Origin: Sashavirus BDX09P1
Reading direction: 5' to 3' (one strand)
Sequence record: OZ035775.1
Length of the DNA stretch: 58,371 bases
How positions within the stretch are numbered: the first letter of the stretch is position 1; each line of letters starts with the position of its first letter. Made by a program: the position numbers and the translations under genes. Of the stretch, positions 5,226 through 52,293 are shown piece after piece. The notes beneath the pieces were generated by a model. That model was not told the origin of the DNA. It saw nothing but the letters and a program-made list of their open reading frames with translations, and made no database searches.

Positions 5226-5611
5226 TAACCCCTTTTAATCTTCCCCAATGCTTGTTGCACAATCTGCCAGGACGATAACATGAATAATTGCGCGTATTGC
5301 CCCGTGGTCTGGTGATGAAATACTCACATGATTTTCAACCCACCCTTCATCTTTGAACCACGGTAATTGTGAACATTTCATACTCATGATCCTCTTGTTT
5401 TTTGTTTAGTGACAAGATATCTCTTCAACCCGTCGCAACTAATTTCACAATCCCCGCAGGAACCACCATCCAACCAGATGATGCATAGTGTGTGATTTCG
5501 TGGGGTGAGTTACGCTTTACACTCACCGTAGCGCCTGACAATCAGCGGTATTTTCGGCCGGACAATTCCGGGTTACTACATACTTGGTCAGGTATCTTGT
5601 CTATGACAACA

Positions 5612-5653
5612 ACTATACAGATACATAAGCAATCTGTCAAGAATTATTTTAAA
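5612..5653 (-). promoter_or_regulatory. sigma70-like promoter P3 (conserved motif copy)
   Basis: Minus strand TTTAAAATAATTC-TTGACA-17-TATAGT; lies inside the track's 5' extension of the terminase ORF. Confidence 0.65.
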
Positions 5654-5716
5654 CATCTGTCACAACCAATCACCCGTGGTAAACTGTACAGAACAGTTAC
5701 AAACGGGCCGATAACC

Positions 5717-7480
5717 ATGAATAAGTTTACTGGAAATATTCATAATTACCCGCGCTGGCGTGATGCCTACGCAAATGACGAACGTATCTGGCGAAAAGGT
5801 CAGCCACGACCGGATTACAAACAGTGTTACATTGACCGTATTAACCTGTTAAACCGTATGCGCACGGATCGGGCAATTGTCCCGGTACTGAAAAAATATT
5901 ACGAAACAAACCCGGTAGCATTCATTCTCGACTGGGCGTTTACTTATGATCCGCGTAACGTCGGTACTGAATACCCACCAAATATGCCTTTCTGCCTTTT
6001 CGAACGTCAGATCGACATGGTTCAGTTTGTTTATGAAGCGCTTGAAGACAAAGAAAAAGGGCTTTGGGAAAAATCGCGAGATTATGGTGCGACCTGGGTA
6101 GCCTGTGGTTTGTCCGTGTGGGCGTGGCTGTATCGTCCTGGTTCGTCAGTTGGCTGGGGATCACGTAAAGAGCAGCTTGTTGATAAATTGGGCGACCCGG
6201 ATAGTATTTTTGAAAAGATTCGCCAGATTATCCGCGCATTACCGCCGGAATTACGTCCTGTTGGCCTGCGTGAAAAAGACCATCTGGTTTACATGAAATG
6301 CATCAACCCAGAAAACGGTGCAACAATTACTGGTGAAGCTGGCAATAACATCGGTCGTGGTGGTCGTAAATCTGTCTATTTTCTCGACGAGGCAGCACAC
6401 GTAGATCGTCCTGAACTGATCGAAGCGTCGTTGTCAGCTAACACCAACGTTCGTATCGACATCAGTTCAGTTAACGGTGTTGGTAACGTTTTTTATCGTA
6501 ATCGTAAAGCTGGTCTGGAATGGGAACCGGGTAAGAAATTACCTCGTGGTAAATTGCGTGTCATGGTTCTGGACTGGCGTGATCACCCGGCTAAAGACGA
6601 CGAATGGTATAAACGAGAAAAACAATCGTTTGCTGAAAAAGGTTTACAGCATATTTTCGCACAGGAAGTTGACCGCGATTATGCCGCTGCTGTTCAGGGC
6701 GTGTTGATTAAAGCTGAATGGGTACGCGCTGCTTTTGACGCTTTCCGTGACACAGAATGGCGCAAAGCTAACGGACTACTTACACCAACAGGTCAACGTA
6801 TCGCCGGACAGGATGCCGCAGACGGTGGTGAAGACGCAAGCGCACTGGTAATTGCTCACGGTGTATTCCTGACACATTTGCAGCTTGACCACAGAGGCGC
6901 TGAACTGGCTGCACCAGGGATGTTGACGATGGCTAATATGCTGGGTGTTGATGAATACTGGTACGAAGTTAACGGTGTTGGTACAGGTGTTAAAGTAGCG
7001 GCAAATGACCGGAAAGATACTCTACGCTTCCGTGTGCGCCCGTGGTTACCGAATGGAAAAGTTGTGGATCCGGGCGGTGATATTATCGGTGGTACGAAAC
7101 CTGGTGACAAAGACCGTAAATCAAACAAAGATTATTTCTCAAATTATAAAGCACAGGCATCGTGGGCGTTACGCCTGCGTTGTCAGCGAATTTATAAATG
7201 GTATGTGGAAGGTCAACCACAGGATCCAGACGAAATCATTCTGATTGATCCATCACTGGAAAATGCACAACGGTTAGAAGCTGAGTTAAGCCAGCCAACG
7301 TATACAAGTAACGGTGCCGGGAAGATTGTGATCGACAAGAAACCAAACGGAAGTAAGTCACCAAACTTTTTCGATGCTGCGGTTATTGCACTATCACCAA
7401 AACGTACCGAATTCGTTGAAGAACCGTTTACTGGTGGTGTGAATCCTGTTGGTACGCCTGATTACGGTGACATTTTTTAA
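5717..7480 (+). CDS. terminase large subunit
   Basis: Walker A-like KSRDYGATW, Walker B-like VYFLDEAAHV, C-terminal nuclease-sized domain; start set at ATG 5717 because the upstream in-frame part is occupied by promoter P3. Confidence 0.85.
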   Translation: MNKFTGNIHNYPRWRDAYANDERIWRKGQPRPDYKQCYIDRINLLNRMRTDRAIVPVLKKYYETNPVAFILDWAFTYDPRNVGTEYPPNMPFCLFERQIDMVQFVYEALEDKEKGLWEKSRDYGATWVACGLSVWAWLYRPGSSVGWGSRKEQLVDKLGDPDSIFEKIRQIIRALPPELRPVGLREKDHLVYMKCINPENGATITGEAGNNIGRGGRKSVYFLDEAAHVDRPELIEASLSANTNVRIDISSVNGVGNVFYRNRKAGLEWEPGKKLPRGKLRVMVLDWRDHPAKDDEWYKREKQSFAEKGLQHIFAQEVDRDYAAAVQGVLIKAEWVRAAFDAFRDTEWRKANGLLTPTGQRIAGQDAADGGEDASALVIAHGVFLTHLQLDHRGAELAAPGMLTMANMLGVDEYWYEVNGVGTGVKVAANDRKDTLRFRVRPWLPNGKVVDPGGDIIGGTKPGDKDRKSNKDYFSNYKAQASWALRLRCQRIYKWYVEGQPQDPDEIILIDPSLENAQRLEAELSQPTYTSNGAGKIVIDKKPNGSKSPNFFDAAVIALSPKRTEFVEEPFTGGVNPVGTPDYGDIF

Positions 7481-7521
7481 ACAGTGTGGCGGGATTATTC
7501 CCGTCATTTTCTTTTTAATTC

Positions 7522-7553
7522 TTGACAAATTACATTATAAATGTTTGTAAATT
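7522..7553 (+). promoter_or_regulatory. promoter-like variant of conserved motif
   Basis: TTAATTC-TTGACA-AATTAC resembles motif core without full UP element; -10 uncertain (TAAATT about 20 bp downstream). Confidence 0.35.
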
Positions 7554-7640
7554 ATCTGTTAGATTAATGTAACACGTCTATACTCCTGCAGGTAACCAAT
7601 CGGTTACAGTTAATTAACATTCTCTCACAGGAGTTTCAAC

Positions 7641-8339
7641 ATGTCTGACATGACTTTAGTTCCCACTGGCGGTTTCGGCGGTGAAGCTGGCGCGGCTGCA
7701 CTTGGTGGTGGTATCGGCGGTCTTATCGGTTCCTGGTTCGGTAACGGCTGGGGTGGTGCCGGTGGTTGGGGTGGTCGTGGTATTGGTGCTGCTGAAGGTG
7801 TTGTTGTTCAGAACTCTCTGGATACTAACGCTATTCTTCAGGCTATTAATGCGGCGTCACTGGCTAACATTCAGGGTCAGAATAGTACTAACCTGACTGT
7901 TGAACGCTCAGCAGCTTCTACCTATAACGGTCTAACCCAACAAAACACACAAAACCTGCTGGCAAACGTTCAAGGTTTTGCAGGTCTGAACACTCAGATT
8001 CAACAGGGCACTAACACTGTGACCAATGCGATCTGTGCGTCTGAAACTGCGGCACTGACTCGTTCTTTCCAGGCACAGTTAGCGGCTGAGAAGTGTTGCT
8101 GCGAAACCAACCTGAATATCGAACGTCAGGCAGAAGCAACTCGTGCACTGATCCGTGATCAGTTCGCACAGTCTCAGGCTGTTCTGATTTGTGACCTGAA
8201 ATCTCAGATTCAAACCCGTGACTTCCAGTTGTCTCAATTGTCACAAACGTCTCAGTTGGCGTGCAAAATTAACCAGGTCGATCAGCTTATTAACTTCAAG
8301 CTGCCTACTCCGCAAACTCCACCGACTGGCTGCTGCTAA
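7641..8339 (+). CDS. glycine-zipper / Q-N-T-rich protein of unknown function
   Basis: N-terminal 45 aa almost only G/A/W (GGFGGEAGAAALGGGIGGLIGSWFGNGWGGAGGWGG), then Q/N/T-rich region with Cys pairs and C-terminal GCC; good RBS GGAG. Confidence 0.6.
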   Translation: MSDMTLVPTGGFGGEAGAAALGGGIGGLIGSWFGNGWGGAGGWGGRGIGAAEGVVVQNSLDTNAILQAINAASLANIQGQNSTNLTVERSAASTYNGLTQQNTQNLLANVQGFAGLNTQIQQGTNTVTNAICASETAALTRSFQAQLAAEKCCCETNLNIERQAEATRALIRDQFAQSQAVLICDLKSQIQTRDFQLSQLSQTSQLACKINQVDQLINFKLPTPQTPPTGCC

Positions 8340-8351
8340 TTGGTCAACTAA

Positions 8352-8373
8352 GCGCCTCTGTACGGGGCGCTTT
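8352..8373 (+). terminator. putative hairpin/attenuator
   Basis: GCGCCTC-tgtac-GGGGCGC followed by TTT. Confidence 0.4.
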
Positions 8374-8389
8374 AACAGGAGATAAGAGT

Positions 8390-8749
8390 ATGCATTACAA
8401 ACCGTATTACGTTATCAAAAAAGACGATGATGACGATGAAGAGGAAGATATAGAAATTCATCACCATCATCATTATCACCACGGGCATCACCCGGACACG
8501 ATGGGAGTATTTCATCATGATAGCTATGCTGGCGAACATGGTTCAGTTATGGCCCATGTTAAAGCACGTATGGATAACCCTCCTTCGACTTGGGCGTCGT
8601 ACCACGATAAGCCCGGCGGGATGATGTCCATTGTTGAAATGGAATATCGCGAACTGATGGAAGAAAAAACCGAAGGTTCGACGTCTGGTATTAAAAAAGA
8701 GCTAACGGATCTGGCTGCAGCCTGTATCCATGCACTTAAAAAGATGTAA
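8390..8749 (+). CDS. His-rich acidic protein
   Basis: DDDDDEEED followed by HHHHHYHHGHH; RBS GGAGA. Confidence 0.5.
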   Translation: MHYKPYYVIKKDDDDDEEEDIEIHHHHHYHHGHHPDTMGVFHHDSYAGEHGSVMAHVKARMDNPPSTWASYHDKPGGMMSIVEMEYRELMEEKTEGSTSGIKKELTDLAAACIHALKKM

Positions 8750-8765
8750 CTAACAGGAAACCGAC

Positions 8766-9269
8766 ATGCAGAATATTAACGCAGGTATGGGTGTCACCCA
8801 GTTTAACGGTATGAAACCGCGAAGCACTATTAACATTGGTGGTGTGGAGTGGTCATTACGTCGGGATGCCACTGACTCAACAACAATGTTTCCTCACCCG
8901 AAGGTAAGCTGGCTTAACGCTGGTTGTGAACCGATGGGTGATGGTCGTTTTCATTACTGTTGGATTTTGGGTGTAATTCCCCCGACACCGGGGACAATCG
9001 AACGACCTGTTAATGTGATGTATGTTGGTTTCCATCAATTTAAAATTAATATCGCACCTAATTCAATTAGTCAGGCTGATTTAGACAGGATGCATGTTTA
9101 TGTCAGCGATACTTCTCATTTTGCTGGTGAATTTGTCAGTAAGTTTTTAGGTACAGAACCTGAACCTGTGGAAACCCGTGAAAATATCAGCCCGTGGCCC
9201 CCGATGAATGATCCTCGTGAGCAACCAAAAGTAGCCAAAAATAAGGTAAACGAAGATGACGAAGAATGA
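8766..9269 (+). CDS. hypothetical protein
   Basis: Track ORF 167 aa; acidic C-terminus. Confidence 0.45.
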   Translation: MQNINAGMGVTQFNGMKPRSTINIGGVEWSLRRDATDSTTMFPHPKVSWLNAGCEPMGDGRFHYCWILGVIPPTPGTIERPVNVMYVGFHQFKINIAPNSISQADLDRMHVYVSDTSHFAGEFVSKFLGTEPEPVETRENISPWPPMNDPREQPKVAKNKVNEDDEE

Positions 9270-9510
9270 AGGGGTAGACAAAGTAGTCGAAAGTCTGGGG
9301 TTACGCGCACACGTAATCGTAGACGAAGGTCACAGTCAAGAAGCGATCATGAAGTCGGCATTTAACGATTTTAAAGCGTTGGGTTCAATGAGTGGGATCA
9401 TGGCAGTGATGACTACCGGGAAATTGAGCCAGCAACAGTTAGATCTGGCGCAACGTATCGCTGTGAAAGTAATTGCAGTTTTAGGTCTTAAAGAGTCAGA
9501 AAAAGCGTAA
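9256..9510 (+). CDS. hypothetical protein
   Basis: Track ORF 84 aa, overlaps upstream gene by 14 bp. Confidence 0.4.
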   Translation: MTKNEGVDKVVESLGLRAHVIVDEGHSQEAIMKSAFNDFKALGSMSGIMAVMTTGKLSQQQLDLAQRIAVKVIAVLGLKESEKA

Positions 9511-9523
9511 AAAGGGGGTTACT

Positions 9524-9688
9524 ATGTGTTGTAGAACATCGTGTTGTCTGGGAAGTCCTGCTACGCAATTTGGTCTTCTTCAGTCACAGATTGCACATAC
9601 TCAGGCCGTTTTCAGAGGGTTTACCAGTCCGTTCATAGTACCATTACAGTTTTCCGCGTTCACGTTTAGACCTTTTGTATTTTACTGA
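9524..9688 (+). CDS. small Cys-rich peptide (54 aa)
   Basis: Below threshold; AAGGGGG RBS 6 bp before ATG; N-terminus MCCRTSCC. Confidence 0.3.
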   Translation: MCCRTSCCLGSPATQFGLLQSQIAHTQAVFRGFTSPFIVPLQFSAFTFRPFVFY

Positions 9689-9696
9689 TCGACTTT

Positions 9697-9723
9697 GCCC
9701 CGGACAGTTCCGGGGCTTTTTTT
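9697..9723 (+). terminator. intrinsic terminator ending the 7.6-9.7 kb operon
   Basis: GCCCCGG-acagtt-CCGGGGC + TTTTTTT. Confidence 0.65.
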
Positions 9724-10004
9724 CAACGTCTGAAAGATGAAAGAACAGCGAGGCTAACAGAACCTAAACCGAATATGACGGCGTATGTTAGCTGATGTTG
9801 AAGTTTCACAAAACCGTAATAATCGCTTTGTAATTCTACGATGTCAAAAGCAATTGAAAAACTGGTTACCAGCAACATGATTGAAAGAACACGAATCAGA
9901 GCAACTGCTAATCCTATCACCCCTTGTTCTTTTTTCTCAGTTGTAATAACGACAACAATCATTAACAGAAGTGAGAAAACAATATACATGTATTCCATAA
10001 TCAT
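9723..10004 (-). CDS. hypothetical membrane protein
   Basis: Two or three hydrophobic segments. Confidence 0.4.
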   Translation of the reverse strand: MIMEYMYIVFSLLLMIVVVITTEKKEQGVIGLAVALIRVLSIMLLVTSFSIAFDIVELQSDYYGFVKLQHQLTYAVIFGLGSVSLAVLSSFRR

Positions 10005-11227: not shown

Positions 11228-12583
11228 ATGGCTGATCAACAATTCGAACAACTAGCCGTTGCCGGGTACAGTCGAACAGGCAACCAGGTAAACGACGATT
11301 TTCTTCCTAAACTGAATGGTAAACAAGGCCGTCGTATTCTTCGTCAGATGGCTGAGAACGACGAAACGATCGGTGGTGTACTGTTTGCTATGAGTAGCGT
11401 TTATCGTTCTGTACAGTGGATTTTTGACCCGTCTGACAAAGATGATCCAGAAGCTATCCGTTATTCAGAATGGTTACAGGATGCTATTGAAAATAAAATG
11501 GGTGATCCGCGTGGTGCACTCCCGGATGATACCTGGTCCGCGTTCGTTCAGACATGGACAGACGTTGATGTATTCGGCTGGGGTTGGTATGACATCTGGG
11601 TCAAAGATCTTGATGACGGTACAGTGGGTATTGCCCGTCTGGTTCCTGTAGCACCTGAAACGCTTGCTGGCTGGGATATTGAAGAACCGACAGGTTATGT
11701 TCGTGGTATTTATCAATGTTCACCTAATCAGGGTACAACGACGTTAATCACACGTGACCGTTCGCTTCATTTGATTTCAAGTCCGAATAAAGGTAACCCG
11801 GAAGGTTTATCACTGCTGCGCACAGCTTATCGCCCGTGGTACTACAAAAAAGTGAATATGGAAATCGAATCCATACTTGCCGAACGTGGTACAGGGTTCC
11901 CGGTAATTACTGTCAACGCAGATATTAAGAAAGCGGCTAATGATCCTAATGTTCCTGAACAACAGCGTCAGGCAGCACAGGCGATGATTGATGACTATGA
12001 AAACATCGTCGCTAATATCAAACGCAATGAACAATCAGGACTGGTGATTTATTCTAAACCGTATATCACGGGTTATGATAACGAAACAGGTGTTACTACG
12101 TACGGTGGTGAACAACAGGTGAAACTGGAATTCGTTACACCTAACCAGACCAGTTCTGTGGATATTGACCGGACGATTAAACGCCTGGATACCAGTATTG
12201 CCCGTGCGTTACTGGCTGATTTTTTATTTTTTGGCAGTTCGGGTAATACAAGTAATGGTGCTAACCTGGGTAATCGTACTGAACTGTGGATCCGCGCAAT
12301 GCAATCACGTATTGACAGCATTGTAGAATGTGTTAATCGTCAGTTGATACCGCAGTTATGGTCATTAAACGCATTTCCTGATGAATACCGCCCGTCGATT
12401 CGCGCCGGGTCGATCAGTAAAGACAGTATCGAGACGTTGACCACTGCACTTGCACGACTTGCACAAGCTGGTGCGCCTGTATTCCCGGATCCAGACCTTC
12501 AGGAATACGTGTATAAAGAGGCTGGTCTACCTATTACGGGGATTGATAAAGCCGGGGACGGATTACCGTCTATTGACGACTGA
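11228..12583 (+). CDS. portal protein
   Basis: 451 aa, size and placement typical of portal; general portal-like composition; family not determined. Confidence 0.65.
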   Translation: MADQQFEQLAVAGYSRTGNQVNDDFLPKLNGKQGRRILRQMAENDETIGGVLFAMSSVYRSVQWIFDPSDKDDPEAIRYSEWLQDAIENKMGDPRGALPDDTWSAFVQTWTDVDVFGWGWYDIWVKDLDDGTVGIARLVPVAPETLAGWDIEEPTGYVRGIYQCSPNQGTTTLITRDRSLHLISSPNKGNPEGLSLLRTAYRPWYYKKVNMEIESILAERGTGFPVITVNADIKKAANDPNVPEQQRQAAQAMIDDYENIVANIKRNEQSGLVIYSKPYITGYDNETGVTTYGGEQQVKLEFVTPNQTSSVDIDRTIKRLDTSIARALLADFLFFGSSGNTSNGANLGNRTELWIRAMQSRIDSIVECVNRQLIPQLWSLNAFPDEYRPSIRAGSISKDSIETLTTALARLAQAGAPVFPDPDLQEYVYKEAGLPITGIDKAGDGLPSIDD

Positions 12584-52017: not shown

Positions 52018-52293
52018 ATGAAAATTGTCGATGCAGAATTTAGTTACATTGGTGATTTTAAAAATGGTTGTGAAATTAAGTCACCGTGTGAAGTTGTGTA
52101 TTATAACCGTAATCATTATAAATGGTGTGGTGATTTCCCAAAAATAGTCCCTGCTGGTTCAAGTCCTATTGTAACTGGTGGTATTGGTAAAAACGGATGG
52201 GTACCAATTACAACAAACAACGATGTGCGTAACGTCTGGTTACCACAGGTTATTTTAATTGGTATTTGTTTGCTTGTTTTATTTTTATGGTGA
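52018..52293 (+). CDS. hypothetical protein with C-terminal TM
   Basis: Track ORF; C-terminal VILIGICLLVLFLW. Confidence 0.4.
   Translation: MKIVDAEFSYIGDFKNGCEIKSPCEVVYYNRNHYKWCGDFPKIVPAGSSPIVTGGIGKNGWVPITTNNDVRNVWLPQVILIGICLLVLFLW

What the first reader, a model, noticed from the sequence alone, without database searches (positions are those of the whole stretch)
8390..8749. His-rich acidic protein inside the accessory operon
The protein opens with DDDDDEEED followed by HHHHHYHHGHH, a composition suggestive of metal binding or chaperoning. It is co-transcribed with the glycine-rich protein, so it may be its partner, immunity or maturation factor.
Basis: seen in the sequence. Interest (0 to 1): 0.4.

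Follow-up and report, generated by a model that had tools for sequence, protein, structure and literature searches.

The report
His-tailed MazG-like phage accessory protein
This small phage gene encodes a metal-site-bearing, MazG/AF0060-type nucleotide-pyrophosphatase-like domain preceded by a conserved acidic-then-polyhistidine tail; it is the second gene of a four-gene accessory cassette that moves between enterobacterial siphophages, and it is real and conserved but a fairly ordinary kind of phage protein whose substrate is unknown.

Summary
The ORF at 8390-8749 (+) is real. It encodes 119 aa with an acidic run (D12-D20) and a His tract (H24-H34, 9 His in 11 residues). The window is a Nonanavirus/Sashavirus siphophage genome, 99.3% identical to E. 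coli phage PJ16.

The disordered acid/His tail is under strong purifying selection: 18 synonymous versus 7 non-synonymous codon changes against phage Segz_1.

The gene is always second in a cassette: Gly-rich protein, hairpin, this gene, a 167-aa protein, an 84-aa protein. The cassette occurs in at least six phage genera at different genome positions. It is partly deleted in 9NA.

The likely function is a metal-dependent nucleotide pyrophosphatase of unknown substrate. The partner idea has only synteny support, and immunity is disfavoured. Interest is modest.

The parts
7486..7507 (+). Terminator-like hairpin plus T run after the large terminase gene. It marks the upstream boundary of the cassette.
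   Evidence: Annotated as a terminator in phage AVIO78A.
7522..7585 (+). Promoter-like region: TTGACA at 7522-7527 and a -10-like TATACT at 7580-7585. Unverified.
   Evidence: Read from the sequence. AVIO78A annotators placed a promoter here. The scan tool found no + strand promoter at its thresholds.
7592..7607 (+). Palindrome GTAACC-AATC-GGTTAC in the 5' leader of the cassette. Possible operator or 5' RNA hairpin.
   Evidence: One copy per cassette in 7 loci from 4 genera.
7641..8339 (+). Cassette gene 1: a 232-aa protein with a Gly-rich N-terminus and a Q/N/Cys-rich remainder (phrog_9288, unknown function).
   Evidence: Lies upstream of the MazG-like gene in 19 of 20 viral loci.
8348..8372 (+). 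Conserved intercistronic GC-rich hairpin followed by TTT. Probably a leaky terminator or attenuator.
   Evidence: dG -17 kcal/mol, z -2.2. Present with covarying stems in all 10 cassettes examined. Annotated as a terminator in AVIO78A and Sasha.
8377..8381 (+). Shine-Dalgarno sequence AGGAG for the His-rich gene.
   Evidence: Read from the sequence. A ribosome-binding site is annotated at the same place in Solent and Sasha.
8390..8749 (+). The finding: a 119-aa protein (phrog_9157), cassette gene 2.
8390..8515 (+). N-terminal tail, residues 1-42, predicted disordered. Short hydrophobic/basic start (YYVIKK), acidic run (8423-8449), His tract (8459-8491).
   Evidence: pLDDT about 46-53. 18 synonymous versus 7 non-synonymous codon differences against Segz_1. 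The same three-part layout occurs in many clusters below 50% identity.
8516..8746 (+). C-terminal three-helix AF0060/MazG-like domain, residues 43-119. P65-x-T-W68 loop; motif E85 (8642-8644), E88 (8651-8653), E104 (8699-8701), D107 (8708-8710).
8766..9269 (+). Cassette gene 3: a 167-aa beta-rich protein (phrog_8329, unknown function).
9256..9510 (+). Cassette gene 4: an 84-aa protein (phrog_7239, unknown function). Overlaps gene 3 by 14 nt.
9524..9688 (+). Small Cys-rich ORF of 54 aa, present in only some cassettes.
9697..9716 (+). Strong terminator-like hairpin (7 of 8 pairs GC) plus T7 run. It marks the downstream boundary of the cassette.

Best explanation
**What it is.** The gene encodes a small two-part protein.
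- Residues 43-119 form a helical domain of the all-alpha NTP pyrophosphohydrolase superfamily (MazG/HisE/dimeric dUTPase). Its closest relative is the AF0060-like family.
- Four acidic side chains, E85 and E88 on helix 2 and E104 and D107 on helix 3, face each other across the helical hairpin. They would hold one or more divalent metal ions that activate hydrolysis of a nucleoside triphosphate (or related polyphosphate nucleotide) to the monophosphate and pyrophosphate.
- By analogy with the superfamily, the conserved P-x-T-W...Y loop probably forms the base pocket, and the protein probably works as a homo-oligomer.
- Residues 1-42 are a disordered but sequence-conserved tail: a short hydrophobic/basic stretch, an acidic run, then a polyhistidine tract. 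The most likely role is capturing or buffering divalent metal for the active site, or tethering the enzyme to a partner.

**How it is expressed.** It is the second gene of a mobile four-gene accessory cassette. It is expressed by read-through of a conserved hairpin, so at a lower level than the upstream Gly-rich protein.

**Shown versus inferred.**
- Shown: the ORF, its conservation, the motif, superfamily-level homology and fold, selection on the tail, and the synteny.
- Inferred: catalysis, substrate, oligomeric state, metal binding by the tail, and read-through.
For: **Motif and sequence conservation**
- E85, E88 and E104 are invariant and D107 is nearly invariant among 38 homologues.
- In 140 representatives of about 200 clusters, E85 occurs in 138/140 and E88 in 133/140. 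Position 104 is E or N in 127/140. Position 107 is always H, D or E, all metal ligands. P65 (137/140) and W68 (138/140) are almost universal.

**Homology to AF_0060 (2p06)**
- The family profile hits PDB 2p06 at E 3.9e-5, aligning the P-x-W loop and both motif halves.
- hhalign gives 90% probability, E 1.6e-6.
- SCOP places AF0060 in the all-alpha NTP pyrophosphohydrolase superfamily, sharing the metal-binding motif (PMC2238974).

**Fold**
- The AF2 model has three helices at pLDDT 81-96.
- The first 8 Foldseek hits are all MazG, AF_0060, MazG-related or PRA-PH chains, with probability up to 0.91.
- Weak Pfam hits among relatives go only to MazG and PRA-PH.
- BASEL annotators independently labelled the Seuratvirus homologues 'putative pyrophosphatase'.

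**Tail**
- 18 synonymous versus 7 non-synonymous codon changes against Segz_1, while the core shows 13 versus 36.
- The acid-then-His layout recurs in many clusters below 50% identity.

**Cassette and hairpin**
-.
Against: - No Pfam, NCBIfam or named PHROG family reaches threshold for this protein.
- Foldseek E-values are all above 0.1, and the domain-only profile reaches only E 0.12 against 2p06. The assignment therefore holds at superfamily level and needs the broad profile.
- AF_0060 itself has no known activity. SCOP notes that it has a different subunit fold and active-site architecture from MazG.
- Most of the wider family has His rather than Asp at position 107, and some members have Asn at 104. 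This departs from the canonical EXXE...EXXD motif and could indicate a non-hydrolytic metal site.
- The domain has only three helices. An active site would need oligomerisation, which was not modelled.
- Nothing indicates the substrate.
- Type B and type C relatives lack the His tract, so the tail is not needed for the core function.
Confidence: 0.55

Rival explanations
1. Non-catalytic metal-binding protein or metallochaperone. It would work with the neighbouring Gly/Cys-rich protein and the small Cys-rich ORF, for example by delivering Zn, Ni or Fe to them. This is essentially the first reader's idea.
For: - The His tract and acidic run are conserved.
- Most family members have His at core position 107.
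- Pairing with a Gly-rich protein is invariant, even where that protein has no BLAST-detectable similarity.
- Gly232 has a CCC cluster and a C-terminal GCC, and ORF 9524-9688 starts MCCRTSCC.
Against: - The fold and motif are those of an enzyme superfamily.
- The Gly-rich analogue in L009 has only one Cys.
- Type B and C relatives lack the His tract but keep the pairing.
- The MazG-like gene stays intact where the Gly-rich gene carries a nonsense mutation or is deleted.
- No chaperone-type domain (GTPase or PPIase) is present.
Confidence: 0.2
2. Counter-defence or host-takeover nucleotide hydrolase. This is a special case of the best explanation. Like Atd1 it would degrade (p)ppGpp, or it would degrade another immune or stress nucleotide, to keep the infected cell productive.
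For: - Phage MazG-like Atd1 depletes (p)ppGpp and blunts TIR-based abortive infection (bioRxiv 10.1101/2022.06.09.495361).
- The cassette is accessory and mobile. It has its own boundary signals, like many anti-defence morons.
Against: - No sequence comparison with Atd1 was possible.
- The cassette sits in late or structural regions, not early ones.
- KarinMuster (Bas82), which carries the gene, is reported as no more robust to the tested defence systems than other small siphoviruses.
- Cyanophage MazG does not cleave magic-spot nucleotides (title of PMC6850273).
Confidence: 0.15
3. Virion-assembly or tail-fibre accessory factor. The cassette would help build or arm the tail, as suggested by the PJ16 annotation 'lateral tail fiber chaperone' for gene 1.
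For: - The cassette directly follows the lateral tail-fibre or tail gene in Seuratvirus, Tlsvirus and Eiauvirus.
- A Gly232 fragment follows tail genes in a T5-like phage.
- Gly232 has weak PHROG hits to virion or tape-measure proteins.
Against: - In Nonanavirus the cassette lies between terminase and portal, and in Segzyvirus after the coat gene.
- 9NA, SeppeHuegi and GottfriedDienst lack intact Gly232 yet are viable isolates.
- An NTPase-type fold is not expected for a fibre chaperone.
Confidence: 0.08
4. The acid/His stretch is meaningless low-complexity sequence produced by slippage, or the ORF is not a gene.
For: - The region is predicted disordered.
- There is indel variation in the tract (P0004 lacks HHGH, yong3 lacks two His).
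Against: - A ribosome-binding site is present.
- There are 114 phage records and about 200 clusters of homologues.
- Synonymous changes exceed non-synonymous changes in the tail.
- The codons are mixed CAT/CAC rather than a pure repeat.
Confidence: 0.02

Closest known systems
AF_0060 of Archaeoglobus fulgidus (PDB 2p06; SCOP all-alpha NTP pyrophosphohydrolase superfamily, AF0060-like family)
   Different: Identity is about 20-25%. AF_0060 is archaeal and has no acid/His tail. Its own activity is unknown, so the match gives a fold and a metal site but not a function.
MazG-type NTP pyrophosphohydrolases (Pfam PF03819): E. coli and M. tuberculosis MazG, cyanophage MazG, phage Atd1, cyanophage S-2L MazZ
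   Different: The Pfam model does not reach threshold. This protein has three helices rather than four or five. It has the P-x-T-W loop signature and, in most of its family, His at the last motif position. No substrate can be transferred from these enzymes.
HisE / phosphoribosyl-ATP pyrophosphatase (Pfam PF01503)
   Different: E-values are only 0.004-0.014. There is no histidine-biosynthesis context in a phage.
His-rich tails of metallochaperones such as UreE, HypB and SlyD (from general knowledge)
   Same: Disordered His-rich segments attached to a folded domain, thought to store or hand over Ni or Zn.
   Different: The resemblance is compositional only. None of their folded domains is present here. 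In this protein the tract is N-terminal and preceded by a conserved acidic run. Not tested.

Membership tests
All-alpha NTP pyrophosphohydrolase superfamily (MazG/HisE/dimeric dUTPase/AF0060; SCOP a.204.1) | Statistically supported sequence or profile relationship to a member | tested here: met
   The A3 family profile hits 2p06 at E 3.9e-5. hhalign gives 90%, E 1.6e-6. Narrower profiles are weaker: E 0.009 and 0.12.
All-alpha NTP pyrophosphohydrolase superfamily | All-alpha helical-bundle fold | tested here: met
   [not shown]
All-alpha NTP pyrophosphohydrolase superfamily | EXXE ... EXXD divalent-metal-binding motif on two adjacent helices | tested here: met
   E85-x-x-E88 and E104-x-x-D107. 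Three are invariant and one nearly invariant in close relatives. In the wider family the last position is H in 106, D in 31 and E in 3 of 140.
All-alpha NTP pyrophosphohydrolase superfamily | Metal-dependent hydrolysis of (d)NTP to (d)NMP plus pyrophosphate | not testable with these tools
   Needs an enzyme assay.
All-alpha NTP pyrophosphohydrolase superfamily | Homo-oligomer (dimer or tetramer) that completes the active site | not tested
   Only a monomer could be modelled.
Pfam MazG (PF03819) | Score at or above the curated gathering threshold | tested here: not met
   No hit for the window protein at E up to 1. Best among 38 close relatives is E 0.011 (5 members). Best among 140 representatives is E 3.4e-4 (4 members).
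Pfam PRA-PH / HisE (PF01503) | Score at or above the curated gathering threshold | tested here: not met
   Best E 0.014 (9 of 38) and 0.0042 (3 of 140).
AF0060-like family | Closest relative by both sequence profile and structure, with a shared P-x-W loop before the EXXE helix | tested here: met
   The tetrameric assembly and active-site architecture described by SCOP could not be checked.
Atd1-like phage (p)ppGpp pyrophosphatases | Twin catalytic motifs plus ppGpp hydrolysis and protection from TIR effectors | not testable with these tools
   The motif is present.
His-rich metallochaperones (UreE, HypB, SlyD type) | A chaperone, GTPase or PPIase domain joined to the His-rich segment | tested here: not met
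   No such domain was found by Pfam or NCBIfam. The folded domain is MazG-like.

The most novel reading that the evidence does not exclude
The four-gene cassette may be an unrecognised, horizontally mobile functional system of enterobacterial siphophages. Its parts are a leader palindrome, a Gly-rich and possibly membrane-active protein, a conserved leaky hairpin, the AF0060-like metalloprotein with its acid/His module, and two proteins of unknown function, one of which has no structural neighbour in the PDB. In this reading the MazG-like protein is the catalytic or metal-handling subunit. Candidate roles are counter-defence, superinfection exclusion or late host manipulation. The acid/His tail would be a dedicated metal-loading or partner-docking module that stands in for the core His107 found in the rest of the family.
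Probability: 0.2. Interest if true: 0.6.

Novelty: new variant of a known kind. Interest (0 to 1): 0.3.

Why it matters
The cassette is present in many widely used model phages. These include the BASEL phages Bas08, Bas21, Bas24 and Bas82, CAjan, JenK1, Tls-like phages and Sasha-like phages. All four of its proteins are annotated as hypothetical.

Assigning the second gene to the MazG/AF0060 superfamily, with a defined four-residue site, gives a concrete and cheap experiment: a nucleotide panel plus point mutants. The natural His tract even allows purification without a tag. The result would also give the first activity for the AF0060-like family.

The finding also corrects annotations. The label 'lateral tail fiber chaperone' for gene 1 is unsupported, and the hairpin between genes 1 and 2 means the genes are probably not expressed equally.

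If the tail proves to be a metal-loading module, it would be a tidy example of a functional natural polyhistidine segment kept by selection in a virus.

Tried and rejected
- **Pfam, NCBIfam and PHROGs on the protein and its neighbours.** They returned only unnamed PHROG families.
- **PDB profile search with the full-length alignment.** The top hit, 7abk, matched only its His-tag and was discarded as an artefact.
- **Homologue search for the Gly-rich protein.** It found 219 proteins; the 120 listed all lack a Pfam domain and an informative name.
- **The search for related loci.** The narrower one returned only fairly close relatives.
- **RNAalifold on the cassette leaders.** MAFFT did not bring the shifted hairpins into register, so no consensus structure was returned.
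- **Literature searches.** They covered Nonanavirus, phage 9g proteomics and histidine-rich phage pyrophosphohydrolases. Nothing on this protein or cassette was found.
- **Spanin, bacteriocin-leader and immunity-pair readings of genes 1 and 2.** Considered and dropped because no lysis genes are adjacent, there is no double-glycine leader consensus, and the Gly-rich gene often occurs without gene 2.
- **Link between the His tail and Asp107.** The association is strong (Fisher p 7e-10), but the Asp107 class is mostly one clade. It is therefore not independent evidence.

Full report
**What the window is.** The 2.2 kb around the finding is 99.3% identical to Escherichia phage vB_EcoS_PJ16 and 98% identical to BASEL phage KarinMuster (Bas82). 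It is 86% identical to the Salmonella phages Sasha, Sergei and Solent. The window is therefore essentially a complete Nonanavirus/Sashavirus siphophage genome. The large terminase lies at 5492-7480 and a Mu-type portal at 11228-12583. The BASEL authors state that no function is known for the extra genome content of this group.

**The observation.**
- ORF 8390-8749 (+) exists and has an AGGAG 8 nt upstream of the ATG.
- It encodes MHYKPYYVIKKDDDDDEEEDIEIHHHHHYHHGHHPDTMGVFHHDSYAGEHGSVMAHVKARMDNPPSTWASYHDKPGGMMSIVEMEYRELMEEKTEGSTSGIKKELTDLAAACIHALKKM.
- The acidic run is residues 12-20 and the His tract is residues 24-34.
- It is the only stretch this His-rich in all six reading frames. On a simple binomial model it is far beyond chance.

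Homologues fall into two parts.
- Residues 43-119 are conserved in 114 phage records and in about 200 clusters at 50% identity among 1.8 billion representatives.
- Residues 1-42 are variable between lineages and come in three forms:
  - type A has an acidic run followed by a His tract, as here;
  - type B, in most Seuratvirus phages, starts MSHIKIATMGMPRVKLPKVALPRISVG and has a shorter His/Glu-rich stretch;
  - type C is short and has no His tract.
- In the core, close relatives keep P65, W68, I81, V82, M84, E85, E88, L89, E104, L105, L108, A109, A111 and A115 invariant, and D107 nearly so.
- E85-x-x-E88 ... E104-x-x-D107 is the divalent-metal motif of the all-alpha NTP pyrophosphohydrolases.

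**Testing that assignment.**
- Pfam, NCBIfam and PHROGs give no named family for the protein.
- Scanning the relatives one by one gives only weak hits, but they go to the two relevant Pfam families, PRA-PH and MazG.
- A profile of the 140 diverse representatives hits PDB 2p06 (AF_0060) at E 3.9e-5. The alignment matches the P-x-W loop and both motif halves. hhalign gives 90% probability.
- AlphaFold2 predicts a disordered tail and three confident helices at 44-62, 77-95 and 98-118.
- The first eight Foldseek hits are all MazG, AF_0060, MazG-related or PRA-PH chains, though at E 0.2-1.3.
- SCOP's curators placed AF0060 in this superfamily on the strength of the same metal-binding motif. They noted that it differs from MazG proper in subunit fold, tetramer and active-site layout.
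- BASEL annotators independently called the Seuratvirus homologues 'putative pyrophosphatase'.
- I therefore file the protein in the superfamily, nearest the AF0060-like family. I do not file it in Pfam MazG, whose threshold it fails.

**A caveat from the wider family.** Across the 140 representatives the last motif position is His in 106, Asp in 31 and Glu in 3. Position 104 is Glu in 101 and Asn in 26. All are metal ligands, but E-x-x-H is not the canonical MazG pattern. The chemistry of the family as a whole is therefore open. The window's protein has the canonical Asp.

**The tail is functional, not filler.**
- Against Segz_1 (Segzyvirus), the 42-codon tail shows 18 synonymous and 7 non-synonymous codon differences. 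The 77-codon core shows 13 and 36.
- The tail is thus as old as the core but more strongly constrained at the protein level. The His codons drift between CAT and CAC.
- The same layout recurs in many clusters below 50% identity: a short hydrophobic/basic stretch, an acidic run, then (V/I)x(I/V)HHHxHHHH.
- His-rich tails are concentrated in the Asp107 class: 18 of 31, against 6 of 109 elsewhere (Fisher p 7e-10). That class is largely one clade, so this may be shared ancestry rather than compensation.
- Metal capture or hand-over to the active site is the simplest reading, but it is inference.

**Context.** The gene is always second in the order: Gly-rich protein, this gene, a protein of about 165 aa, a protein of about 85 aa.
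- This holds in:
  - Nonanavirus/Sashavirus, between terminase and portal;
  - Seuratvirus, including Hafnia phage yong3, after the tail fibre gene;
  - Tlsvirus (Drexlerviridae), after the lateral tail fibre gene;
  - Eiauvirus, after a tail gene;
  - Segzyvirus, after the coat gene;
  - a Yersinia phage;
  - several metagenomic contigs.
- In 20 IMG/VR loci the Gly-rich gene is upstream in 19, and the third and fourth genes are downstream in 18 and 19.
- In a quite different phage with a Terminase_3 enzyme, the upstream protein has no BLAST-detectable similarity. It is nevertheless of the same type, MDTMNLLPVGGDGGALGGAGGG....
- The cassette has terminator-like hairpins at both ends in the window.
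- It is accessory:
  - phage 9NA lacks genes 1 and 2 and the 5' end of gene 3;
  - SeppeHuegi has an in-frame stop in gene 1;
  - GottfriedDienst has lost most of gene 1.
- Record counts in the phage collection are 178 for gene 1, 114 for gene 2, 139 for gene 3 and 178 for gene 4. Gene 2 is therefore a frequent but not obligate member, partly because divergent copies escape tblastn.

**Co-transcription.**
- A GC-rich hairpin with a short T run lies between genes 1 and 2 (8348-8372; dG -17 kcal/mol).
- An equivalent hairpin is present in all ten cassettes examined. The stem sequences differ but still pair. Other groups annotated it as a terminator.
- Only about 17 nt separate it from the start codon, leaving no room for a promoter. 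Gene 2 is most likely expressed by read-through, at a lower level than gene 1. That would suit an enzyme placed beside an abundant protein.
- Genes 3 and 4 overlap by 14 nt.

**Function.** The best-supported mechanism is metal-dependent hydrolysis of a nucleoside triphosphate or related nucleotide by an oligomer of the helical domain, with the tail supplying or buffering metal. I give this 0.55.
- Known phage members of the superfamily do varied things:
  - Atd1 degrades (p)ppGpp;
  - cyanophage MazG is a pyrophosphohydrolase that cannot hydrolyse magic-spot nucleotides (PMC6850273);
  - the MazG-like enzyme MazZ of cyanophage S-2L has been crystallised bound to dGDP.
- No substrate can therefore be inferred.
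- The rival readings are listed separately with their odds. They are a non-catalytic metallochaperone for the Cys-rich neighbours, a tail-assembly helper, and a counter-defence enzyme.
- The 'immunity factor' idea is disfavoured because gene 1 often occurs without gene 2.

**Verdict.** This is a real, conserved gene. It is a new variant within a known superfamily rather than a new kind of thing. Its points of interest are a selected natural polyhistidine/acidic tail and membership of a widespread, mobile and wholly uncharacterised four-gene cassette. Interest is 0.3.

Noticed in passing
window 7580-7607: A -10-like TATACT is followed by the palindrome GTAACC-AATC-GGTTAC, about 35 nt upstream of the Gly-rich gene. 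Exactly one copy occurs per cassette in Nonanavirus, Seuratvirus, Tlsvirus and Eiauvirus loci. More divergent cassettes appear, by eye, to have a different-sequence hairpin at the same place. It could be an operator or a 5' RNA hairpin.
   Followed up: partly
window 7641-8339; L004 6078-6785; L005 5291-5838; L039 2752-3342: The Gly-rich cassette protein has a glycine-zipper-like N-terminus, a CCC cluster and a C-terminal GCC. It carries an in-frame stop at codon 83 in BASEL phage SeppeHuegi, is mostly deleted in GottfriedDienst, and occurs as split fragments alone after tail genes in T5-like Salmonella phage polluks. The PJ16 label 'lateral tail fiber chaperone' and the BASEL label 'putative sugar-binding protein' have no support here.
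   Followed up: partly
window 9524-9688: A small Cys-rich ORF (MCCRTSCCLGSPATQ..., 54 aa) lies between cassette gene 4 and the terminator. It is conserved in 9NA (gp15) and, more distantly, in Seuratvirus. It is absent from the Tlsvirus and Eiauvirus loci examined and from most of the viral-contig cassettes.
   Followed up: partly
[not shown]
   Followed up: partly
window 9723-10004 (minus strand): A 93-aa predicted membrane protein converges on the cassette terminator. It travels with the cassette in Nonanavirus, 9NA, Seuratvirus and Eiauvirus, at 44-98% identity.
   Followed up: no
phage records MG065636, MG065637, MG065669 ('Campylobacter phage' A16a, A15b, A123): These records carry this enterobacterial cassette, matching at the same identity as the E. 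coli phages listed beside them (herni, EC147). The host label looks doubtful.
   Followed up: no
window 8423-8491: The acidic run and His tract are built almost entirely from Asp, His and Tyr, plus Glu. Asp, His and Tyr use NAY codons, which are read by queuosine-modified tRNAs. The cassette is common in Queuovirinae, which make 7-deazaguanines. This may be coincidence and was not tested.
   Followed up: no
window 52229-52243: A second match to GTAAC-N5-GTTAC lies inside ORF 52018-52293. It is probably chance: 0.5 matches are expected and 9 of 100 shuffles give two or more.
   Followed up: yes
PDB search output, entry 7abk: A natural His tract in a query profile pulls out His-tagged PDB constructs as false top hits. 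The domain-only profile removed this artefact.
   Followed up: yes
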